Origin: Dehalococcoidia bacterium
GTDB taxonomy: Bacteria > Chloroflexota > Dehalococcoidia > Lucifugimonadales > CAUZEB01
Length of the DNA stretch: 50,673 nt
Direction of reading: 5' to 3'
Assembly (NCBI GenBank): GCA_963578655.1
Contig: CAUZEB010000001.1
Location: 1-50,673, forward strand
Shown: one piece after another, positions 5,548-46,274 of the stretch
Layout: the number at the start of each line of letters is the position of its first letter
How positions within the stretch are numbered: position 1 is the first letter of the stretch
The notes under the pieces: model-generated
The model's input: only the letters and a program-made list of their open reading frames with translations
What the model was told of the DNA's origin: nothing
The model's database searches: none
Translations under genes and position numbers: made by a program

Positions 5548-6456
5548 TTAATCATCTTCCAACACTATATCTCCACTTTTACCTCCTGTTTTCTTCACTA
5601 ACCTTACGTTATTTATACGCATAGACCGATCTACACTTTTACACATATCATAAATCGTCAAGGCTGCGATACTCACCGCTGTCATTGCCTCCATCTCCAC
5701 ACCGGTCTTTGCAGTAGTTTTTGCCATGCCCTCAATAGCTATTAAATTGTTCTCGTGATCCATATCGAATTGCAATGCTACTTTGGTAAGTTGCAAAGAA
5801 TGACATAGGGGGATCAGCTGAGACGTATTCTTAGCCGCGATTATTCCAGCTACCCGAGCGACAGAAATAACGTCCCCTTTCTGAAGATCGTTTGCTTCAA
5901 TCAAAACTAACGTTTGACGACTCATAGAAATTTGAGCCCTGGCGACAGCTACTCGAGCAGTTTCAGGTTTCATACTAATGTCGACCATAGAAGCCTCTCC
6001 GGATGTATTCAAATGTGTAAACTTACCCGCATATGAGTTAAAGTCTTGGTGATGTTTGGCTTCGCCTACAGCTAATCTATCGGCCATTTCATTCATTGGA
6101 TGCCCATCGTGGCCTTTAACCCAGCACCAAGTCACTTCGTGACGTCCCACGACAGCATCTAATTTCTCCCACAGGTCTAAATTAGCTTTACGTTTCCAGC
6201 TCTTAGTCATAGTGTTAATTAGATACTGACTGTCACTAAAAACAGTTACTCGACCTGGTTCAACCAGGGCTTTAAGGCCCTCTACAACCGCTAATATTTC
6301 CATCCTATTATTAGTGGTATGGTCTTCGCGGCCTTTTACTATTCGCCTGTCGCCTTGTTCAAAGATCACAGCAGCCCAACCACCCGGTCCAGGGTTACCC
6401 AAACAAGCACCATCTGTGTAGATTTCTATCAATTGTTTCTCCATCCTCCCGTACAT
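5548..6456 (-). CDS. moaC: Fusion protein: RNase HI domain (N-terminal) plus cyclic pyranopterin monophosphate synthase MoaC domain (C-terminal)
   Basis: Residues about 1-135: 'IEIYTDGACLGNPGPGGWAAV', 'NNRMEILAV', 'FSDSQY', 'GHDGHPMNEMAD' (RNase H DEDD set). Residues about 148-302: 'FTHLNTSGEASMVDIS', 'KGDVISVARVAGIIAAKNTSQLIPLCH', 'TGVEMEAMTAVSIAALTIYDMCK', 'KTGGKSG' (MoaC). One uninterrupted frame. The start could be 6456 or 6444. Confidence 0.85.
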   Translation of the reverse strand: MYGRMEKQLIEIYTDGACLGNPGPGGWAAVIFEQGDRRIVKGREDHTTNNRMEILAVVEGLKALVEPGRVTVFSDSQYLINTMTKSWKRKANLDLWEKLDAVVGRHEVTWCWVKGHDGHPMNEMADRLAVGEAKHHQDFNSYAGKFTHLNTSGEASMVDISMKPETARVAVARAQISMSRQTLVLIEANDLQKGDVISVARVAGIIAAKNTSQLIPLCHSLQLTKVALQFDMDHENNLIAIEGMAKTTAKTGVEMEAMTAVSIAALTIYDMCKSVDRSMRINNVRLVKKTGGKSGDIVLEDD

Positions 6457-21839: not shown

Positions 21840-23270
21840 TTAGGAGTTTGAAAGAACCTCTCGCAAGTTTATGATATCACGTCTTAAACCTGCATCGGCA
21901 TTAAGTTGGTTTGCTATACGATCGCATCCATGCTTGACAGTGGTGTGGTCCTTCCCGCCTAGAATTCGACCAATAGTGGAGAGTCCTAAATTGGCCTCCT
22001 TCCTAAGTAGGTACATAGTAACCTGACGGGCATGCGCTGTTCTTTTATCCCGTTTACGACCTGCAAGTGCGTCCCTTCCTATACCAAAATAGGATGAGAC
22101 AACGTCAATAACTGTTGTTTCCGATAAACGTCTTGTTCCTAAGGAATTAACAACGTCGGCAACTGCCTGCTTCACTAATTGGACAGTTACAGGCATTTGC
22201 GTGAGCTGAGCATATGCTATTACTCTATTGAGGCTACCTTCTAGTTCTCGTATGTTTTTGTGTATTCGTTCAGCGAGAAATTCAATAACCTCTACAGCAA
22301 TCTCTTGCTTCATTAACTCAGCCTTTGCGCGAAGAATCGCTAGGCGTGTTTCCAAATCAGGTGACTGGATATCAACAACTAGGCCACCTGCCAGTCTAGA
22401 CTGCACTCGCCCCTCCAGTAATGTTAGAGCGTTAACAGGGCGATCACTAGTAATAACTATTTGGCGGTTTGACATGTGTAGTGCATTGAAGGTGTGGAAA
22501 AATCCCTCCTGTGTTTGCTCTTTCCCAATTAAGAACTGTATGTCGTCTAGTAGCAAAACCTCAGCGCTCCGATATCGGATACGGAACGCTTCTGTTTGTC
22601 CCTCACGTATGGCTTTAATATATTCGTTCGTAAACTCTTCAGTTGTAGCGTAGATAAGGGTTTTCTTTTGGGATAATACCTTGTGGCCAATGGCATGTAG
22701 AAGATGTGTCTTACCGAGGCCCACGTCAGAGTATAAAACTAAAGGATTGTAGACGAAACCAGGGTTGTTGGACACAGCTTCTGCGGCGGCATGAGCCAGT
22801 TCATTTGATTTACCAACGATAAAGGTCTCGAAAGTGTACCGTGGGTTAAGGAATGTTGGTTTATCCAGTTGGGGCAGATTCAAAGATTCGTGTACGTTCG
22901 ATCTACCAGAATCTTGAGTCTTATTAGCGCTCTCTTGAATATGGTCGGGTGAAACGGAGATATGCTCATCTGTGGATGTGTTGCCAATCTGCAATACCCG
23001 GAAACGGACTTCCGTCCGAGATTTGGTCACTCTCTCCATTGCTTGTGATATTAGGGAGTACATCCTCTGCTCTAGCATTTCTGCAACAAATGCGTTTGGT
23101 GTCCCTACAATGAATTCATCTCGTTCCTTCGCGACTCCTATGGTACCCTTAAGCCAAGTTTCATAGCTAGGCCGCGTCACCTGAATTTGGAGTTCACCTA
23201 GTACAGCTTCCCATATTTGTTTTGCTTGTTGTGCATTCATATCTTTGGTATCTATTTTTTGAGTATTCAT
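21840..23270 (-). CDS. dnaA: Chromosomal replication initiator protein DnaA
   Basis: N-terminal 'WEAVLGELQ', AAA+ Walker A 'GLGKTHLLHAIG', Walker B 'LLLDDIQF', and the C-terminal DNA-binding HTH 'RKRDKRTAHARQVTMYLLRK...GGKDHTTVKHGCDRI'. Confidence 0.97.
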   Translation of the reverse strand: MNTQKIDTKDMNAQQAKQIWEAVLGELQIQVTRPSYETWLKGTIGVAKERDEFIVGTPNAFVAEMLEQRMYSLISQAMERVTKSRTEVRFRVLQIGNTSTDEHISVSPDHIQESANKTQDSGRSNVHESLNLPQLDKPTFLNPRYTFETFIVGKSNELAHAAAEAVSNNPGFVYNPLVLYSDVGLGKTHLLHAIGHKVLSQKKTLIYATTEEFTNEYIKAIREGQTEAFRIRYRSAEVLLLDDIQFLIGKEQTQEGFFHTFNALHMSNRQIVITSDRPVNALTLLEGRVQSRLAGGLVVDIQSPDLETRLAILRAKAELMKQEIAVEVIEFLAERIHKNIRELEGSLNRVIAYAQLTQMPVTVQLVKQAVADVVNSLGTRRLSETTVIDVVSSYFGIGRDALAGRKRDKRTAHARQVTMYLLRKEANLGLSTIGRILGGKDHTTVKHGCDRIANQLNADAGLRRDIINLREVLSNS

Positions 23271-36041: not shown

Positions 36042-36125
36042 TTTAATTATTCGTGCACTAAACTAATTGCCAAGCTTCAACATTTGATTAAGAACGGAAT
36101 TTATTACAGGCAGCTCGGAGGATTT

Positions 36126-37283
36126 ATGCTGGATTACTATCGGGTTTTACAAAATTTACCTTCGCAGGATCGGATGATTCAAAATATGGCTCGAGATTTC
36201 CTTTCCACTGAAGTAGCTCCCAGAATGAACGATTACTGGGAGGAGGGCATATTTCCTACTCATCTCGTTAAAAGAATTGGAGAATTAGGATTTTTGGGTC
36301 CAAACTTATCAAAAGAATACGGATCAAGTGGCATAAGTAGTATAGCGCATGGTTTGATTATGTACGAATTAGAACGGATAGACTCCGGTTTAAGGAGCTT
36401 TGCTAGTGTGCAGGGATCCCTCGTAATGTATCCTATACATAGATATGGATCAGATGATCAAAAGAGAGAGTATTTACCGAAGTTGGCCTCTGGGGAAATT
36501 ATAGGATGCTTCGGTCTTACTGAAAATGACGGTGGTTCCGATCCCGCAGGTATGAAAACTAGTGTCAGGCGTGATGGCGATACATATATTCTTAATGGAA
36601 CAAAAATGTGGATAACGAACGGATCCATAGCGGATATAGCAATTATTTGGGCAAAGGACGAGCAAGCCGGAGTTTGTGGATTCGTTATTCCAACCAATGT
36701 TCGAGGATTCCAAGCAAATAGAATTAAACATAAAATGAGTATGCGAGCTTCAGTGACTAGTGAAATAGTGATGGATAATGTTCGTGTTCCAACATCAACT
36801 ATTTTACCTGAGTCCAAAGGCATGAAGGCTCCTCTATCTTGCCTAACAGAGGCGAGATATGGCATAGCTTGGGGGGCTCTGGGAGCCTTGGAAGCAGTTT
36901 ACGATGTGGCTCTAAACTTCTCCAAAAGAAGGAGCACCTTTGGAAAACCTATTGCTTCTCGTCAGATGGTCCAGCAGAAACTCGTAGATATGGTCTCAGA
37001 CCATACCAAAGGTCTCTTAATGGCCTGGCGACTAGGAACCCTAAAAGACCAAGGTATGATGGATTATCTACAGGTCTCTATGGCAAAACGAGATAATGTT
37101 CGTGCTGCATTGACGGCGAGTAGGGAGGCAAGAGGTATTCTGGGGGCAAGTGGCATAACACTCGATCATGATGTAATAAGGCATATGCTAAATCTCGAGA
37201 CTCTTGATACCTATGAGGGGACTTACGATATACATACACTAGTACTAGGACGCGACCTTACCGGACTTAATGCCTTGGCTTAG
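36126..37283 (+). CDS. Acyl-CoA dehydrogenase, glutaryl-CoA-dehydrogenase-like
   Basis: 'IGCFGLTENDGGSDPAGMKT', 'LNGTKMWITNG', 'YEGTYDIHTLVLGR'. The ATG at 36126 ('MLDYYRV') is preceded by GGAGGA. The ORF-track TTG at 36084 is less likely. Confidence 0.85.
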   Translation: MLDYYRVLQNLPSQDRMIQNMARDFLSTEVAPRMNDYWEEGIFPTHLVKRIGELGFLGPNLSKEYGSSGISSIAHGLIMYELERIDSGLRSFASVQGSLVMYPIHRYGSDDQKREYLPKLASGEIIGCFGLTENDGGSDPAGMKTSVRRDGDTYILNGTKMWITNGSIADIAIIWAKDEQAGVCGFVIPTNVRGFQANRIKHKMSMRASVTSEIVMDNVRVPTSTILPESKGMKAPLSCLTEARYGIAWGALGALEAVYDVALNFSKRRSTFGKPIASRQMVQQKLVDMVSDHTKGLLMAWRLGTLKDQGMMDYLQVSMAKRDNVRAALTASREARGILGASGITLDHDVIRHMLNLETLDTYEGTYDIHTLVLGRDLTGLNALA

Positions 37284-37330
37284 TCAGTTAAATTAGGGAT
37301 TATTATTTTATTAAGGAGAGCTGTGGAGCG

Positions 37331-38545
37331 ATGTATAATGACGTTGCAACTAATGCGGTGATTATAAGTGCTAAAAGAACCCCAATTGGAAAATTTCAGG
37401 GTGCTTTGAGTAAATATAAAGCACATGAATTGGGAGGCATTGCTATAAGGTCTGCAGTACAAGCGGCCCGTCTATCGGATACCGATGACATAGACGAAGT
37501 TTTAATGGGTAATGTTGTATCGGCTGGTTTAGGACAAAATATAGCCAGGCAATGTGGCATATCAGCCGGTCTCCCCACTACAGTGGGAGCCAGCACTATA
37601 AATAAGGTATGTGGTGCAGGATTGAAAGCCGTAATTTTGGCTGCCCAAGCTATTAAGGCTAACGATGGGGATTTGTTTGTGGCCGGTGGTGTAGAAAATA
37701 TGAGTCAAGCGCCACATATTGTTAATGGACGACAGAATGAGTTAAAATTCGGCAATGTTGAAATGAAGGATTCTCTATATATAGATGGCTTACTTTGTCC
37801 CTTTGAAGGCTGGACAATGGGACAAGCAGCAGAATTCATAGCGGACGAATTTCAAGTTTCTAGAGAAGCAATGGACAGATATGCATTATCCAGTCATCAG
37901 AAGGCCATTGTGGCTATGGACACCGATAAATTTAAACAAGAAATCATTCCCATCAATGTTAAATCTAGGGATGGTCAGATAAGCCAAATTGGACAAGATG
38001 AATCTCCGAGACGCGATACAACTCTTAAATCTCTCAGTAAACTCAAACCGGTGTTTGCCACAGATGGAAAAGTAACCCCAGGGAATGCTCCTGGTTTGAA
38101 TGATGCTGCAGTAGCATTGGTGGTATCCAGTGAGGCAAGGGCTATAGAACTTGGCACTAAACCACTTGCCAAAATAGTTGGCTATGCGCAAAAGGCCGTC
38201 GATCCTAGGTATGTGTTTGATGCTCCAAGTAGGATTATCCCTCATTTGCTAGATAAGGTAGGATGGAGCCTGAGCGATGTAGACCTGATTGAATTGAACG
38301 AAGCTTTTGCAGCTCAGGTATTGGCTAATGGCTACTCAATGGCGGAAATGGGATGGGATTGGAATAAACTAAACGTTAATGGAGGAGCAATTGCTTTGGG
38401 TCACCCATTGGGAGCCACAGGGGCGCGATTGTTAACGACTTTGGTTTATGCACTTAAGGATCGAGGGCTTAGAAAGGGAATAGCCGTTCTGTGTTTGGGA
38501 GGTGGTGAGGCTGTTGCGATGTGTGTGGAAGCATACAAGGATTAA
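37331..38545 (+). CDS. Acetyl-CoA C-acetyltransferase (thiolase II)
   Basis: Active-site Cys 'INKVCGAGLKA', 'NEAFAAQ', 'NVNGGAIALGHPLGATGAR', 'LCLGGGEAVAM'. SD AAGGAGA upstream. Confidence 0.93.
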   Translation: MYNDVATNAVIISAKRTPIGKFQGALSKYKAHELGGIAIRSAVQAARLSDTDDIDEVLMGNVVSAGLGQNIARQCGISAGLPTTVGASTINKVCGAGLKAVILAAQAIKANDGDLFVAGGVENMSQAPHIVNGRQNELKFGNVEMKDSLYIDGLLCPFEGWTMGQAAEFIADEFQVSREAMDRYALSSHQKAIVAMDTDKFKQEIIPINVKSRDGQISQIGQDESPRRDTTLKSLSKLKPVFATDGKVTPGNAPGLNDAAVALVVSSEARAIELGTKPLAKIVGYAQKAVDPRYVFDAPSRIIPHLLDKVGWSLSDVDLIELNEAFAAQVLANGYSMAEMGWDWNKLNVNGGAIALGHPLGATGARLLTTLVYALKDRGLRKGIAVLCLGGGEAVAMCVEAYKD

Positions 38546-38586
38546 ATAACCATTGGATACCAATTAATATGTAGGAGGAATCGTTG

Positions 38587-39942
38587 TTACGGCGCTTCAG
38601 CCGTTAACTGTTGCGATCGTGCTTCCGGTGGAAGTGAATTTTCCCAGTTAGGGATGAGAAGCTGTTTTGATGGTTCTAGGAGTAAAACAATAGCGGAACC
38701 GGCAAAGCTGAAAGCCATCGACAGGATAAGCAGAGCATTGTAAGAGTCAATAACGTATAGAACAAGACCAGATAGTCCGACCGCTACACCATGCCCTATC
38801 AATGCTCCCATCATTTGAAATCCGTAAGTTGTTCCTATAGGACCCGGACCAAAATATTGACGATTTACGACGATATATGTAGACATTTCTCCGCCAAAAC
38901 CCATTCCAAAGAAGATGCCAAACATATAAAACATCCAGACGTCGGAGGCCCAAAACAGAGAAAGAACGGTGATACCTTGTACAAACATCGCAAGGACCAT
39001 GATAGCTTTTCCCCCGAACTGTTCGGCAATAATAGGCGAAACAAAACGACTTATAACACTAAAGAGAGATATCAGGCTGAGTATCCATGCTGCTGTTATT
39101 AAGCTAATTCCCTGTTGCATCGCCAAGGGGATAGAATAGATAAGGATGATACCATGACCAGCACATCCAAGACTGTGTATTACAGGGAGATTCCAGAACG
39201 CTCGAGTTCGTCTTATATGCTTATTGTAGGTTTTTAGTCTCAGTCGCTCAATGTTTTTTGGCATTGAGATTTCCTCAGAAACCTGGGCACTTAATCCATA
39301 GGGATTTAAGCCCAGGTCGGCTGGACGATTTCTGAAAATGAGCGTTAGTATCATCAAGAGGGTTCCCCCAGTAAGACCTATAGTCCAAAAGGTGCCTCGC
39401 CAGCCAACCCCTTCTATTAGAGAGGCTATTAAAGGTGACATAATAGCCGTGCCTATACCACCGGCTCCCCAGAGCAAGCCTATAGCTAGTCCTAATCTTC
39501 TACGAAACCAAAGACTCACAGCGGCTATGAGCGGGACCATAGATATCGACTGTGTTATTGATAACATGACACCAAATGTTAGGAAGAAATGCCAAGCATG
39601 TGTCATGATACCCATCAATACCATGCTAGATGCGTATAGGAGTCCGCCCAATAACAGCATTACACGCGCTCCATATCGATCTCCTAGCCAGCCACTGATC
39701 GGAGAGAATAAAGCACCGACAAAGTAATAGACCATTAGAGCAGAACTGATCAAGCTTATGCTCCAACCGAAACCACCTTCGGAATCACTGAGAGGCGCTA
39801 CAATTACTCCTGCAGCCATGCCAATAGAGGCTCCAAGGACCTGTACCACTACTAGAAGTGATACGACAACCCACCCGTAGTGAATACCGTAAGGTAAACG
39901 GGTGGCTAAGTGCCTCATGGTCATTCTTGAAGAAAGATTCAT
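38587..39942 (-). CDS. MFS transporter
   Basis: 451 aa, about 12 TMs, with the MFS signature 'GWLGDRYGARVM'. Confidence 0.8.
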   Translation of the reverse strand: MNLSSRMTMRHLATRLPYGIHYGWVVVSLLVVVQVLGASIGMAAGVIVAPLSDSEGGFGWSISLISSALMVYYFVGALFSPISGWLGDRYGARVMLLLGGLLYASSMVLMGIMTHAWHFFLTFGVMLSITQSISMVPLIAAVSLWFRRRLGLAIGLLWGAGGIGTAIMSPLIASLIEGVGWRGTFWTIGLTGGTLLMILTLIFRNRPADLGLNPYGLSAQVSEEISMPKNIERLRLKTYNKHIRRTRAFWNLPVIHSLGCAGHGIILIYSIPLAMQQGISLITAAWILSLISLFSVISRFVSPIIAEQFGGKAIMVLAMFVQGITVLSLFWASDVWMFYMFGIFFGMGFGGEMSTYIVVNRQYFGPGPIGTTYGFQMMGALIGHGVAVGLSGLVLYVIDSYNALLILSMAFSFAGSAIVLLLEPSKQLLIPNWENSLPPEARSQQLTAEAP

Positions 39943-40255: not shown

Positions 40256-40342
40256 GGCTTGTTCTATGTTTCCCTTATGATTGAATATTGACTAATGTCT
40301 ATCTAAGTAGATGCATTAAGTGACTGTAGATAAATGCTGACA

Positions 40343-40897
40343 TTATGGCAGCTCAACTCCCGTTAGTATATAAATTATTTGGTCCACCATGGCTTCAGCT
40401 CTAGAACGGAGTTCCTTTTTTGTTAACGACGCGATTGGATGGGCGGTGTATATTATAGGGTAATGAGGATCTCCCCACATTTTTGCCATTGCTTTGGAGG
40501 TTTCTATAAATGAATCTGTACATATCGTGACGGATGGAATACCAGCTTTTTCGACGTGAATGCCGTCGTGCACACTGCACGCACTGCATGAACCTCAGTC
40601 TCCTACGCCGACAATCACATAGTCACACTCCTCGGCCATAGATTGAATCACACTAGGCTCGGCTGGTTTGGAAGCGGAAGGTTTTCGGTGATACTTAACC
40701 TCATTAACGCCGAATCTTTGATGAATAAGATTTTTGATTGCCTCTAACAATTCCTTTGCATTGACCTTACTATCATCGATCAATCCCATACGTTTGTTTG
40801 ATAGAGTCGAGAGTTTTTCTGCACCGGAGAATCCGACTTCTATAGGTTCAGTTACTGGGTTAACCAGTATCATCGAACCGCGAGAACTTGAGATCAT
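40343..40897 (-). CDS. Candidate selenoprotein with a U-G-S-C motif (UGSC-family-like). In-frame UGA at 40595-40597 read as Sec.
   Basis: ORFs 40595-40897 and 40343-40573 share one frame and are separated by a single TGA. Read-through gives '...CDYVIVGVGD-U-GSCSACSVHDGIHVEKAGIPSVTICTD...', 184 codons. The downstream ORF has no SD and only a GTG. A stem-loop starts 5 nt after the UGA. Confidence 0.65.
40560..40589 (-). promoter_or_regulatory. SECIS-like stem-loop downstream of the in-frame UGA
   Basis: mRNA: UGA-GGUUC-AUGC-AG-UG-CGUGCA-GUG-UGCACG-A-CG-GCAU. Perfect 6-bp apical stem (40576-40581 / 40567-40572) with a GUG loop, two further pairs and a 4-bp lower stem (40586-40589 / 40560-40563). 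The apical-loop G lies about 20 nt after the UGA. Confidence 0.45.
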
Positions 40898-41053
40898 GTA
40901 GACATTCCTTTCAATGAAACTTTCTAGTATGCGTTAAAATAATCACGTTGCGGAGAATCCCCAGTCTATCACATGACTAAATTGGTTACATGATGGTCTT
41001 TTGCTCTATCAGAGAGATTACTTGACCACATATAGAGTGACAATACAAAAGAA

Positions 41054-41296
41054 CTATATACTGACTGTTCTAGAAGCACATGCGCAAGATCCACCACCAC
41101 CACAACATCCTCCCCCTCCACTAATAGACGTCGATGGCCCATTACCTGTTGAGGAGAAAGCAGAAAAAACGGAGAATTTTCGTCTTGTTTTACTTCCGCA
41201 ATCGGGACAACTTATGATCATATCCATACTGCTTAAGGAGAGCAACTTCTGAAATTCAGCGTTACAACTTTCACACGCATATTCATAAATAGGCAC
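41054..41296 (-). CDS. FmdB-family zinc-ribbon protein (CxxC...CxxC) with a Gly/Cys-rich tail
   Basis: 'MPIYEYACESCNAEF...SCPDCGS' followed by the tail 'GGGGCCGGGGSCACA', as is typical for this family. Confidence 0.8.
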   Translation of the reverse strand: MPIYEYACESCNAEFQKLLSLSSMDMIISCPDCGSKTRRKFSVFSAFSSTGNGPSTSISGGGGCCGGGGSCACASRTVSI

Positions 41297-44723: not shown

Positions 44724-46274
44724 GTGGCCTCTATGCTAAAACTTGTAACGTTGTGGTTGGTCCTTTCCTCTTTGGGATTGTGGTTTTCTAATGAGACATC
44801 ATATGCACATGCTATTGGACAAAGGTATGATCTGCCTATCCCACTAAGTTTTTTCCTATTTGGTGGTGCAGTCACAGTTGCACTATCTTTCCTGGTTATA
44901 AGTGCATTCGTTAAACCTCAGCAGAGGCGGCATATTTATCCTCGACATAACGTTCTAACTTACAACTTCATTTCTATCCCATATGTTATGCCAGCTATAT
45001 TAAATATAGTAAAATTGGCCTCTGTTGGAGCGTTTCTGTTAATAATAATATCCGGTCTTACCGGTACTAGTAGGCCTACAGAAAATATATCACCTACCTT
45101 TATTTGGATAATTTGGTGGGTAGGGATGGGGTATGTATCGGCTTTAATTGGAAATGTGTGGTTTTTCATTAACCCTTGGAGAATATTATACGAATGGGTT
45201 GAGGTCTTCTTCGATAATGGATTCGATCACCGTAGCTCAGGCATTGTTCAATATCCTAAGCAGATGGGGATCTGGCCTGCAGTATGCTTTCTCTTGATAT
45301 TCTCTTGGCTTGAGAATGTCTACGTCGGCTCTGTCATCCCTTTCCAGTTGGCCATTCTGATAGTTCTTTATTCAGCTATAACTTGGATAGGAATGTTTTT
45401 ATTTGGTAAACATAAATGGCTACGCTCAGGCGAGGTTTTTACCGTGCTTTTCACTATGTTCTCTAAATTTTCATTTACCGAAGTCAGAGTAACTGATAAT
45501 CAGACATGTAGTTTGTGTGGATTTGATTGTAATCCTTCCGGCAGTCTTTGTGTAGATTGCTATGAATGCTATGATAATGCAAAAGACCATCAAAGAGAAA
45601 TTAATGTACGTCCCTGTGCAGCCGGTCTATTTATACGCCATAGAATAGATTTGTCGATCGTTGCCTTTGTACTCATTGCTTTGGCCAATGTTACGTTTGA
45701 TGGACTGCAGGAGACGTCGGTCTGGTCGTCCTTTCAGAACACGGTCCATCGTATTTTTGTAGGATCTGGTACAGGCTTTAGCGATATTGTCGACACGATT
45801 AGCGTAATATTAGTACCCTTAGTGTTCACCTTAGTTTACCTTGGATTTTCCTGTTCTATTAAACTCTTATCACGAGAAAAGATGCTAGTTTTGGATGTAG
45901 CTAAAACTTTCGTTTTCTCATTGATCCCCATCGCTTTGGCCTACAATATGGCACATTTTATGTCATTACTTGTTGTTCAAGGACAGTTAATTATTCCCTT
46001 AGCATCGGACCCTTTGGGTGTGGGGTGGGATCTGTTAGGATCCGCTGACTATCTCATCAATGTAGACGTTATGAATGTACAGTTTATTTGGTTTATGTCT
46101 GTGGGTGCTATTGTAACAGGTCATGTGGTATCTGTTTATGTTGCTCACGTCATAGCTGTACAGACATTTTTGAAACATTCGACAGCTCTACGCAGTCAAT
46201 ATCCTATGATGGTTCTAATGATATGCTATACCGCTATAAGTTTATGGATAATTGCTCAACCTATTGTTAAGTAA
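44724..46274 (+). CDS. Polytopic membrane protein of unknown function (about 10-12 TM) with a Cys-rich loop
   Basis: 516 aa. Signal-like N-terminus 'LVLSSLGLWFSNETSYA/HAIGQRYDLPIPL'. Six Cys in 21 residues, 'CSLCGFDCNPSGSLCVDCYEC' (45507-45569). GTG start 10 nt after AGGAG. Confidence 0.6.
   Translation: MASMLKLVTLWLVLSSLGLWFSNETSYAHAIGQRYDLPIPLSFFLFGGAVTVALSFLVISAFVKPQQRRHIYPRHNVLTYNFISIPYVMPAILNIVKLASVGAFLLIIISGLTGTSRPTENISPTFIWIIWWVGMGYVSALIGNVWFFINPWRILYEWVEVFFDNGFDHRSSGIVQYPKQMGIWPAVCFLLIFSWLENVYVGSVIPFQLAILIVLYSAITWIGMFLFGKHKWLRSGEVFTVLFTMFSKFSFTEVRVTDNQTCSLCGFDCNPSGSLCVDCYECYDNAKDHQREINVRPCAAGLFIRHRIDLSIVAFVLIALANVTFDGLQETSVWSSFQNTVHRIFVGSGTGFSDIVDTISVILVPLVFTLVYLGFSCSIKLLSREKMLVLDVAKTFVFSLIPIALAYNMAHFMSLLVVQGQLIIPLASDPLGVGWDLLGSADYLINVDVMNVQFIWFMSVGAIVTGHVVSVYVAHVIAVQTFLKHSTALRSQYPMMVLMICYTAISLWIIAQPIVK

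What the first reader, a model, noticed from the sequence alone, without database searches (positions are those of the whole stretch)
40343..40897. In-frame UGA inside a U-G-S-C motif: a candidate selenoprotein that the ORF track splits in two
The minus-strand ORFs 40595-40897 and 40343-40573 are in the same frame (40897-40573 = 324 = 3x108). Only one stop codon, TGA at 40595-40597, separates them.

Reading through gives one 184-codon protein: '...AEECDYVIVGVGD-U-GSCSACSVHDGIHVEKAGIPSVTICTDSF...'. The UGA sits three residues before a Cys, a UxxC arrangement analogous to CxxC redox motifs. The downstream piece has no Shine-Dalgarno and begins only at a GTG that falls inside this conserved-looking stretch.

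I recall that RefSeq uses the name 'UGSC family (seleno)protein' for a family defined by exactly this motif. That is recollection, not a search result. No function is known to me for such proteins.
Basis: partly seen in the sequence, partly recalled or inferred. Interest (0 to 1): 0.72.

Follow-up and report, generated by a model that had tools for sequence, protein, structure and literature searches.

The report
UGSC-family selenoprotein gene with SECIS
The two short minus-strand ORFs are one 184-codon gene for a member of the already catalogued UGSC selenoprotein family. Its internal UGA is read as selenocysteine with the help of a hairpin just downstream, and the family's function is still unknown.

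Summary
On the minus strand, 40897..40343 is one reading frame broken only by TGA at 40597..40595.

- **Family:** with U replaced by C, the protein scores above the curated cutoffs of NCBIfam NF041046 'UGSC family (seleno)protein' and Pfam PF24696.
- **Conservation:** all 80 related Dehalococcoidia/Chloroflexota loci keep TGA at this column. The frame stays open afterwards, and the downstream half is better conserved than the upstream half.
- **Cys forms:** 72 Cys-form genes carry TGC/TGT at the same column.
- **SECIS:** eleven nt after the UGA lies an 8-bp hairpin with a GUG loop (40583..40564). It meets all four published bacterial SECIS criteria. Its five codons use a single codon each in 81/81 Sec forms, while the same codons vary freely in Cys forms.
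- **TGA elsewhere:** TGA is an ordinary stop elsewhere in the window.
- **Not verified:** selA, selB, selD and tRNA-Sec were not found in the ~68 kb of the source contig that I could reach.

The family has been known since the Sargasso Sea/GOS surveys (PMC2398784), and its function is still uncharacterised.

Additional observations:
- The modelled fold of a 60%-identical homolog is flavodoxin-like, not thioredoxin-like.
- Most UGSC genes are adjacent or fused to an unannotated ~355-aa protein.
- The window's clade lacks that partner nearby and instead follows a Cys-rich Zn-ribbon gene.

This is a correct catch of a known kind, so interest is low to moderate.

The parts
40343..40897 (-). Complete UGSC-family selenoprotein CDS: 184 sense codons including Sec101, ATG at 40897..40895, terminal TAA at 40345..40343.
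   Evidence: single frame; NF041046 158.7 bits (cutoff 125); PF24696 192 bits; the frame is open and conserved across the UGA in 81/81 sequences.
40595..40597 (-). In-frame UGA = selenocysteine codon 101, first residue of the motif U-G-S-C-S-A-C.
   Evidence: TGA in 80/80 loci. TGC/TGT in 72 Cys-form genes; the column is Cys in ~97% of family representatives. TGA is a genuine stop for 8/36 long ORFs in the window and for 20/81 orthologs.
40564..40583 (-). Bacterial SECIS hairpin: 8-bp stem with one bulged A and a GUG loop (40575..40573). It starts 11 nt after the UGA and lies inside codons 105-112.
   Evidence: RNAalifold consensus; the variable stem positions change only to wobble pairs; codons 106-110 use one codon each in all Sec forms. 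Cys forms vary at these codons (1.0-1.6 bits), and Sec forms fold better than their synonymous recodings; all four published bSECIS criteria are met.
40905..40910 (-). Shine-Dalgarno-like AAGGAA; its AGGA core ends 8 nt upstream of the ATG.
   Evidence: Read directly. Not tested further.
41054..41296 (-). Upstream same-strand gene for an 80-aa Zn_ribbon_8/FmdB-type protein with a Gly-rich tail holding four Cys. It is the conserved neighbour of UGSC in this clade and a possible operon partner.
   Evidence: PF09723, E 9e-14; present upstream on the same strand in 34/36 loci of the window-like clade and 0/44 of the other clade; tail motif GGGC[CG]GG..GGCACA is conserved; promoter-like sites only upstream of this gene and no terminator-like site between the two genes, but the counts are not above shuffles.

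Best explanation
Window 40897..40343 (minus strand) is a single gene for a ~20-kDa member of the UGSC selenoprotein family (NCBIfam NF041046, Pfam PF24696) in a Dehalococcoidia/SAR202-type Chloroflexota bacterium.

**Decoding (anatomy shown, mechanism inferred).** The UGA at 40597..40595 is decoded as selenocysteine. An 8-bp hairpin with a GUG loop and one bulged A begins 11 nt downstream and lies inside the coding sequence. By analogy with established bacterial SECIS elements, it would recruit SelB carrying Sec-tRNA(Sec) to the ribosome. This RNA requirement has fixed both the codons and the peptide it encodes: A-C-S-V-H in Sec forms versus A-S-A-V-A in Cys forms.

**Protein (partly shown).** It is a single doubly wound alpha/beta domain. 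This was modelled on a 60%-identical homolog, not on the window protein itself. Sec101 sits at the end of strand 3, at the N-terminal cap of a helix, and Cys104 lies one turn later.

**Function (inferred, not shown).** The U-x-x-C pair most likely cycles between selenol/thiol and selenenylsulfide. That would make the protein a small redox carrier or the catalytic subunit of a reductase. Reducing power would come from a thioredoxin-reductase-like flavoprotein, and electrons would go to a partner protein. In most lineages the partner is a ~355-aa unannotated protein. In the window's clade it may instead be the Cys-rich Zn-ribbon protein encoded just upstream.
For: **Family.**
- NF041046 scores 158.7 bits (cutoff 125) and PF24696 scores 192 bits.
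- Sources name close Cys homologs 'UGSC family (seleno)protein'.

**Translation across the UGA.**
- TGA is present in 80/80 loci.
- 78-94 open in-frame codons follow it in 81/81 sequences.
- Identity to the window protein is 66% downstream versus 56% upstream.
- Ser103, two codons after the UGA, switches between TCN (63) and AGY (18).

**No genome-wide reassignment.** TGA ends 8/36 long ORFs in the window and 20/81 orthologs.

**SECIS.**
- The consensus hairpin has only wobble-compatible changes in its stem.
- Codons 106-110 show 0 synonymous differences in 400 comparisons, against 41% elsewhere downstream.
- Codon entropy at these positions is 0 in Sec forms and 1.0-1.6 bits in 72 Cys forms.
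- Sec forms fold at -9.3 versus -6.3 kcal/mol for synonymous recodings; Cys forms fold no better than their recodings.
- All four criteria of the published bSECIS model are met.

**Redox role.**
- The U column is Cys in ~97% and the +3 position is Cys in ~92% of 150 representatives.
- In the AF2 model (pLDDT 88, pTM 0.82) the motif lies at a strand-to-helix junction.
- One representative is a UGSC fusion to a pyridine-nucleotide-disulfide oxidoreductase.
- The literature classes the family as a UxxC redox selenoprotein.
Against: - No selA, selB, selD or tRNA-Sec was found in the window or in the additional ~17 kb reachable on the 295-kb source contig. The Sec trait of this genome is therefore inferred, not shown.
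- Six of the eight stem pairs never vary, and no pair shows a compensatory double change. The structure rests on synonymous-site conservation rather than covariation.
- The hairpin's folding energy is not better than dinucleotide shuffles.
- No Rfam family matches.
- A Sec->Arg variant (L081) keeps the hairpin sequence. This may simply be a recent loss.
- The functional part is inference. The fold has only generic flavodoxin-like neighbours with TM about 0.45. There is no solved relative. The usual partner gene is absent from the ~68 kb of the source contig that I could read.
Confidence: 0.92

Rival explanations
1. The UGA is a true stop. The locus is a split or decaying gene, or it makes two polypeptides: a 100-aa N-terminal piece and a 76-aa piece re-initiated at the GTG at 40573.
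For: Gene callers on public assemblies, including the window's own source contig, call only the 100-aa product. The GTG is invariant in all loci.
Against: Residues 102-108, between the UGA and the GTG, are invariant as protein but vary synonymously, including Ser103 TCN<->AGY switches. They are therefore translated in this frame. Cys-form homologs are single uninterrupted ORFs. No SD-like motif precedes the GTG. The GTG is part of the hairpin, and this explains why it never varies. A pseudogene would not keep TGA and an open frame in 81 lineages at 53-88% identity.
Confidence: 0.02
2. The UGA is read through, but with a standard amino acid rather than Sec. Possible routes are near-cognate Trp, Cys or Arg insertion stimulated by the downstream hairpin, or a lineage-specific suppressor tRNA.
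For: The Sec machinery was not found in the sequence I could reach. One lineage carries CGA (Arg) at this codon and keeps the hairpin.
Against: The aligned residue in UGA-less homologs is Cys in ~97% of representatives, within a C-x-x-C redox motif; this is the usual signature of Sec/Cys pairs. The hairpin meets every bSECIS criterion, including G-U in the loop and the UGA-to-loop spacing. The family is a recognised selenoprotein family in genomes that have the Sec trait. TGA works as a normal stop elsewhere in the window.
Confidence: 0.05
3. The TGA is a sequencing or assembly error in a Cys codon (TGC/TGT).
For: None beyond the single-base distance between TGA and TGC/TGT.
Against: The same TGA occurs in 80 independent genome assemblies, many of them long-read complete chromosomes, and in three contigs that carry this exact locus.
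Confidence: 0.01

Closest known systems
UGSC family (seleno)protein (NCBIfam NF041046; Pfam PF24696). This is the 'UGSC-containing protein' of Zhang & Gladyshev 2008 (PMC2398784).
   Same: Full-length profile match above the curated cutoffs. Same U-G-S-C motif at the same column, about 180 aa, a single domain, and Sec/Cys alternation. A major selenoprotein family in marine and freshwater metagenomes.
   Different: Nothing that defines the family differs. The gene context does: most members (all Cys-form loci with enough sequence, 44/44 loci of the second Dehalococcoidia clade, and 11 fusions) are linked to a ~355-aa unannotated protein. The window's clade lacks it nearby and follows a Zn_ribbon_8 gene instead. 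The 2008 paper suggested a Trx-like fold; the AF2 model is flavodoxin-like.
Selenoprotein B of glycine/sarcosine/betaine reductase (GrdB/F/H) and D-proline reductase PrdB.
   Same: The window protein carries the U-x-x-C-x-x-C motif that the literature gives for GrdB/F/H. There are weak but recurrent NCBIfam hits centred on the Sec region: 52/64 family members hit PrdB TIGR04483 and 32/64 hit GrdB TIGR01917, with best E about 3e-5.
   Different: Scores are far below the cutoffs (19.6 versus 602 bits). Pfam GRDB is hit by 0/64 members. A Rossmann-type GG-reductase model is hit about as often (46/64), so part of the signal may be a generic strand-Gly-loop-helix motif. The third Cys is absent from most Cys forms, and in Sec forms it is encoded by the SECIS stem. 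No PrdA/GrdE-type proprotein gene is nearby. UGSC is 184 aa; GrdB is about 430 aa.
Escherichia coli fdhF-type bacterial SECIS and the bSECIS consensus model (PMC13188914, Fig. 2A).
   Same: A hairpin in the coding region just 3' of the UGA, with a small apical loop holding G-U, a single bulged base in the stem, 19 nt between the UGA and the loop, and an 11-nt spacer to the stem base. The 11-nt spacing of the E. coli minimal SECIS is from my own knowledge (Liu et al. 1998).
   Different: The sequence is unrelated to fdhF. The loop is GUG closed by A-U. No Rfam model matches. SelB binding was not tested.

Membership tests
UGSC family (NF041046 / PF24696) | Profile HMM score above the curated whole-protein cutoff, over the full model length. 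| tested here: met
   158.7 bits against a cutoff of 125, profile positions 2-147 of 147. PF24696 192.1 bits against a cutoff of 25, positions 17-171 of 172 (U replaced by C).
UGSC family (NF041046 / PF24696) | [U/C]-G-S-C motif at the conserved column, after the strand ...V-G-V-G-D. | tested here: met
   VGVGD-U-GSC. CGSC in 111 and CGAC in 13 of 150 representatives at the aligned column.
UGSC family (NF041046 / PF24696) | Linkage to the ~355-aa unannotated partner. This is a regular feature I observed here, not a published criterion. | tested here: not met
   no partner homolog in the window, L082, L084 or L085 (~68 kb of the contig). It is adjacent in 44/44 clade-B loci and in every Cys-form locus with enough sequence, and fused in 11/150 representatives.
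Bacterial selenoprotein gene (Sec-UGA plus bSECIS) | In-frame UGA aligned with Cys in homologs, with conserved in-frame coding sequence downstream. | tested here: met
Bacterial selenoprotein gene (Sec-UGA plus bSECIS) | bSECIS consensus (PMC13188914, Fig. 2A): 3-9 nt apical loop and 4-16 bp upper stem; G in the first two loop positions, followed by G or U; 16-37 nt between UGA and loop; MFE <= -7.5 kcal/mol. | tested here: met
   GUG loop closed by A-U; 8 bp; 19 nt; consensus energy -9.4 kcal/mol, and -14.2 kcal/mol for the window's 43 nt. Sec-specific synonymous freeze.
Bacterial selenoprotein gene (Sec-UGA plus bSECIS) | Host genome encodes selA, selB, selD and tRNA-Sec. | not testable with these tools
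   None found in the window or +-10 kb beyond it, and no tRNA-Sec in loci L001-L060. The rest of the 295-kb contig and the genome could not be read. The AIRS-domain gene in L085 lies between purH and purF and is purM.
Bacterial selenoprotein gene (Sec-UGA plus bSECIS) | Selenium actually incorporated at the UGA position. | not testable with these tools
   Needs 75Se labelling or mass spectrometry.
GrdB/PrdB selenoprotein B superfamily | Family HMM match at or near the curated cutoff. | tested here: not met
   TIGR01917 19.6 bits against 602; TIGR04483 12.6 bits against 300. Pfam GRDB hit by 0/64 members. Recurrent weak hits leave remote homology of the Sec segment open.
GrdB/PrdB selenoprotein B superfamily | U-x-x-C-x-x-C motif. 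| tested here: met
   U-G-S-C-S-A-C. Motif definition. The third Cys is not conserved in Cys forms.
GrdB/PrdB selenoprotein B superfamily | Operon with a pyruvoyl proprotein subunit (PrdA / GrdE). | tested here: not met
   no such gene in the window. The neighbours are a Zn ribbon, trpB and an MFS transporter.
Thioredoxin-fold UxxC selenoproteins | Thioredoxin fold. | tested here: not met
   b-a-b-a-b-a-b-a-b-a topology, modelled on a 60%-identical homolog (pLDDT 88); the top 50 PDB matches are flavodoxin-like or Rossmann-like domains and none is a thioredoxin.

The most novel reading that the evidence does not exclude
The window's clade may be a distinct functional variant of the UGSC system. 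It has lost, or moved elsewhere, the near-universal ~355-aa partner. It may work instead with the co-located Zn-ribbon protein, whose Gly-rich tail carries four conserved Cys, as a two-protein selenium-dependent redox module. In this reading the UGSC domain itself is a free-standing relative of the Sec-bearing segment of GrdB/PrdB reductases (U-x-x-C-x-x-C) on a flavodoxin-like scaffold. That would link an abundant aerobic-ocean selenoprotein to the chemistry of the clostridial reductases.
Probability: 0.12. Interest if true: 0.55.

Novelty: already known. Interest (0 to 1): 0.25.

Why it matters
For annotation, the gene should be called as one 184-aa selenoprotein. Public gene calls on this very contig, and on many metagenome contigs, truncate it to 100 aa at the UGA.

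For biology, it adds nothing new in kind. UGSC proteins have been listed among the most abundant aquatic selenoproteins since the Sargasso Sea/GOS surveys (PMC2398784). The open question is what they do. Four by-products of this check could help anyone working on that:
- The SECIS visibly dictates five codons and four residues of the Sec forms.
- The modelled fold is flavodoxin-like, not Trx-like.
- There is near-obligate linkage or fusion to an uncharacterised ~355-aa family with more than 6,500 clusters and no Pfam model.
- The window's clade has a different neighbour, a Zn-ribbon gene.

Tried and rejected
1. **Rfam.** Gathering thresholds on the whole window and permissive thresholds on 40300-40950 gave no SECIS or any relevant family.
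2. **Folding energy against dinucleotide shuffles.** Not significant (z = 0.06 and -0.37). I replaced it with synonymous-site and synonymous-recoding tests.
3. **Covariation.** The stem is almost invariant, with no compensatory double changes.
4. **Sec machinery.** All window ORFs of 300 aa or more were annotated, +-10 kb on the contig was checked, and ARAGORN was run on the window and 60 loci. Nothing was found.
5. **Restricted tools.** I therefore modelled the 60%-identical homolog P0001 instead of the window protein.
6. **Solved structures.** There is no sequence relative of UGSC or of the partner. Foldseek on the partner model gave no convincing match (best TM 0.26/0.31).
7. **GrdB/PrdB homology.** Suggestive in NCBIfam but not reproduced with Pfam GRDB. 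A profile-profile test was impossible because I had no GrdB/PrdB seed sequences. Left as inconclusive.
8. **Relic SECIS in Cys forms.** Hairpins seen in 2 of 3 Cys-form genes looked like a relic SECIS. A sample of 72 genes showed they are by-products of GC-rich codons and the peptide.
9. **Other selenoprotein genes in the window.** None is credible among the 35 TGA-split ORF pairs, and there is no second copy of the hairpin.

Full report
**1. Observation**

Reading the minus strand from 40897 to 40343 gives one frame of 184 sense codons. It has a single internal stop, TGA at 40597..40595, in the context ...AEECDYVIVGVGD-*-GSCSACSVHDGIHVEK..., and a terminal TAA.

An AAGGAA lies just upstream of the ATG; its AGGA core ends 8 nt before it.

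Of 35 same-frame ORF pairs in the window that are separated by one TGA, this pair ranks first for coding potential on both sides. The others are antisense shadows of real genes.

**2. Family membership**

With U replaced by C, the protein matches NCBIfam NF041046 'UGSC family (seleno)protein'. The score is 158.7 bits against a curated cutoff of 125, and the match covers profile positions 2-147 of 147. Pfam PF24696 'UGSC' scores 192 bits.

Sources name close Cys homologs 'UGSC family (seleno)protein'. A search of 1.84 billion representatives finds 3,554 clusters at E <= 1e-3.

The family was described as the 'UGSC-containing protein' in the GOS selenoproteome:
- UxxC motif.
- 255 Sec forms versus 21 Cys forms.
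- No Pfam domain at that time.
- 'Likely Trx-like fold' (PMC2398784).

It is still listed as functionally uncharacterised in reviews from 2022 and 2026. It was found in 26 of about 5,200 genomes and makes up 8.2% of marine selenoprotein genes.

**3. Is the UGA translated?**

A scan of one genome per species returned 80 loci. Nearly all are Dehalococcoidia or Chloroflexota MAGs, with 53-88% identity to the window protein. The evidence for translation through the UGA is as follows.

- All 80 loci carry TGA at this column, followed by GSCSAC... in frame.
- The frame stays open for 78-94 codons after the TGA in 81/81 sequences.
- Identity to the window protein is higher downstream (66%) than upstream (56%).
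- Ser103, two codons after the UGA, uses TCN in 63 sequences and AGY in 18. This is possible only if the codon is translated in this frame.
- TGA is not reassigned genome-wide. It ends 8 of 36 long ORFs in the window and terminates 20 of the 81 orthologs.
- Homologs without UGA are uninterrupted ORFs with Cys at the aligned column.
- 72 distinct Cys-form genes from metagenomes have TGC or TGT there.
- The column is Cys in about 97% of 150 family representatives, and the +3 position is Cys in about 92%.
- Several database proteins end exactly at ...VGVGD, including the gene call on the window's own source contig. These are gene-caller truncations at the UGA.

**4. The SECIS element**

RNAalifold on 81 sequences gives an 8-bp stem with one bulged A and a GUG loop.

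| Feature | Value |
|---|---|
| Alignment columns | 15-34, counted from the U of the UGA |
| Window coordinates | 40583..40564; loop at 40575..40573 |
| Sequence | 5'-YGCGUGCA-GUG-UGCACG(A)YG-3' |
| Spacer | starts 11 nt after the UGA |
| Consensus energy | -9.4 kcal/mol |
| Energy of the window's 43 nt | -14.2 kcal/mol |

The two variable stem positions change only to wobble-compatible pairs (C-G/U-G and G-C/G-U). One sequence has a U-U at the loop-closing pair.

The rest of the stem is invariant, so there is no covariation. Folding energy is also not better than dinucleotide shuffles. The decisive evidence comes from synonymous sites instead.

| Measure | Sec forms | Cys forms (72 genes) |
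|---|---|---|
| Codons 106-110 | one codon each (GCG TGC AGT GTG CAC) in 81/81 | vary freely |
| Codon entropy at these five codons | 0 bits | 1.0-1.6 bits |
| Observed MFE versus synonymous recodings | -9.3 versus -6.3 kcal/mol | -10.7 versus -9.9 kcal/mol |
| Recodings that fold at least as well | 12% | 43% |

Further points:
- Other invariant four-fold-degenerate residues of the Sec-form protein use 3-4 codons, with entropy of 1.2-1.9 bits.
- Against the window there are 0 synonymous differences in 400 codon comparisons at codons 106-110. Elsewhere downstream, 41% of codons differ synonymously.
- The peptide differs exactly where the stem lies: S-A-C-S-V-H-D-G in Sec forms versus S-A-S-A-V-A-D-G in Cys forms.

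The hairpin meets all four criteria of the published bacterial SECIS model (PMC13188914 Fig. 2A):
- Loop of 3-9 nt and stem of 4-16 bp.
- G followed by G or U at the start of the loop; here A-[GUG]-U fits 'N1-G-U-N-N2'.
- 16-37 nt between the UGA and the loop; here 19 nt.
- MFE <= -7.5 kcal/mol.

Rfam has no matching model.

**5. What could not be verified**

There is no tRNA gene or Rfam hit in the window. No window ORF of 300 aa or more is SelA, SelB or SelD. The window is ordinary chromosome carrying dnaA, recA, uvrA, obg, trpB, moaA and others.

The window comes from a 295-kb ENA metagenome contig. The 10 kb beyond each end also lack sel genes. An AIRS-domain gene there lies between purH and purF and is purM. 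No tRNA-Sec lies in 60 related loci.

The Sec trait of this genome is therefore inferred from the gene itself.

**6. What the protein may do**

*Fold.* An AlphaFold2 model was built for the closest full-length homolog, P0001 (60% identical), with a 64-sequence alignment.

- The model is confident (pLDDT 88, pTM 0.82).
- It shows a beta-alpha-beta-alpha-beta-alpha-beta-alpha-beta-alpha domain.
- The U/C column lies between strand 93-99 and helix 102-117.
- Foldseek against the PDB returns only generic flavodoxin-like or Rossmann-like domains at TM about 0.45 (lumazine synthase, the NagZ C-terminal domain, TIR, flavodoxins).
- No thioredoxin appears among the top 50 matches. The older 'Trx-like fold' suggestion is not supported.
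- No solved structure is related by sequence.

*Motif.* A Sec or Cys at a strand-to-helix N-cap with a Cys one turn later is the usual geometry of a redox-active pair. This is established general knowledge. Its application here is inference.

*Link to GrdB/PrdB.* The window motif U-G-S-C-S-A-C fits the U-x-x-C-x-x-C motif of GrdB/F/H.

- In favour: 52/64 family members weakly hit the PrdB model and 32/64 hit the GrdB model of NCBIfam, around the Sec segment.
- Against: a Rossmann-type GG-reductase model is hit about as often. Pfam GRDB is hit by none. The third Cys is not conserved in Cys forms.
- I leave this link as inconclusive.

**7. Gene context**

Three arrangements recur.

- **Actinobacterial-type Cys forms.** UGSC is followed directly by a ~355-365-aa ORF with no Pfam, NCBIfam or PDB relative. 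In the three loci with gene calls this ORF overlaps the UGSC stop and is followed by a short-chain dehydrogenase. Every Cys-form locus with enough sequence has this ORF.
- **Second Dehalococcoidia Sec clade (VAIGD-U-GSC).** The same ~355-aa family lies directly upstream in 44/44 loci.
- **Window clade (VGVGD-U-GSC).** The partner is absent in 36/36 loci and in the ~68 kb read from the window's contig. Instead, 34/36 loci and the window have an ~80-aa Zn_ribbon_8/FmdB-type gene upstream on the same strand (window 41054..41296). It has a conserved Gly-rich tail with four Cys and occurs in 0/44 loci of the other clade.

Fusions support the linkage. 11 of 150 family representatives are UGSC-partner fusions (for example P0175, 35% identity, E 2e-57). 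One (P0177) is a fusion to a pyridine-nucleotide-disulfide oxidoreductase.

The partner family has more than 6,500 clusters, all labelled 'hypothetical'. Its model (pLDDT 78) has no convincing structural neighbour.

Together these observations suggest that UGSC is the redox-active subunit or carrier of a multi-protein system and is reduced by a TrxR-like flavoprotein. They also suggest that the window clade uses a different partner. All of this is inference.

**8. Verdict**

The finding is real and correctly interpreted, and it is an instance of an already catalogued selenoprotein family.

- Its practical value is an annotation fix: one 184-aa selenoprotein instead of a 100-aa fragment.
- Confidence that this is a UGSC-family gene decoded through a Sec-UGA and a bSECIS is about 0.92.
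- The remaining doubt is the unverified Sec machinery.
- Interest is low to moderate.

Noticed in passing
window 41054-41296 (-); L001-L049 upstream of the UGSC gene: An ~80-aa Zn_ribbon_8/FmdB-type protein (CxxC...CPxC, then SVFxAFS, then a Gly-rich tail with four conserved Cys, GGGC[CG]GG..GGCACA) precedes UGSC on the same strand. It is present in 34/36 loci of the window-like clade and 0/44 of the other clade. The gap to UGSC is usually 42-235 nt and is 156 nt in the window. It may be a clade-specific partner.
   Followed up: partly
L036:4856-5932 (+) and equivalents in L030, L033-L080; L086:3552-4616; P0175 residues 214-537: A large family (>6,500 clusters) of ~355-aa proteins has no Pfam, NCBIfam or PDB relative. 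It lies directly next to UGSC in 44/44 loci of the second Dehalococcoidia clade and in every Cys-form locus with enough sequence. It is fused to UGSC in 11/150 family representatives. It is probably the 'Unknown_1' fusion partner of PMC2398784. Its AF2 model (pLDDT 78) has no convincing fold match. It is absent from the window and its flanks.
   Followed up: partly
L081:650-700 (protein P0001; also P0002): A Chloroflexota UGSC variant has CGA AGC (Arg-Ser) in place of TGA GGN (Sec-Gly) but keeps the SECIS hairpin sequence GCGTGCAGTGTGCACGAC intact. It was seen in two independent datasets (JGI and ENA). It may be a recent loss of Sec, with loss of the catalytic residue.
   Followed up: partly
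L082:9141-9443, L083:545-847; proteins P0005, P0007, P0009, P0011, P0013: Public gene calls for Sec-form UGSC genes, including the one on the window's own source contig, stop at the UGA. They give ~100-aa fragments ending ...VGVGD. This is a systematic mis-annotation in metagenome protein catalogues.
   Followed up: yes
P0177 (502 aa): One family representative fuses an N-terminal UGSC domain to a pyridine-nucleotide-disulfide oxidoreductase (Pyr_redox_2, thioredoxin-reductase-like). This hints at how the C/U-x-x-C pair is reduced.
   Followed up: no
L086, L087, L088 (Cys-form loci): All three loci show the same arrangement: UGSC, then the ~360-aa partner whose start overlaps the UGSC stop, then a short-chain dehydrogenase (adh_short).
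   Followed up: partly
window 36084-39942: In about 20 related loci, Lit (PF07314) and MazG genes follow UGSC directly. In the window, a block of acyl-CoA dehydrogenase, thiolase and an MFS transporter lies between UGSC and Lit. This looks like a local insertion or rearrangement.
   Followed up: no
window 21840-23270 (-) and the GC-skew profile: dnaA lies in the window, and the cumulative GC skew reaches its minimum between about 20 and 36 kb. The chromosomal replication origin may be in or near this window.
   Followed up: no
window 5548-6456 (-): A single 302-aa ORF combines an N-terminal RNase H domain (residues 10-132) with a C-terminal MoaC domain (residues 157-292). This is an unusual pairing.
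   Followed up: no
window 44724-46274 (+): A 516-aa ORF with no Pfam or NCBIfam match lies just downstream of a small cytochrome c gene (Cytochrom_C/CBB3 in the contig's gene calls) and upstream of recA.
   Followed up: no
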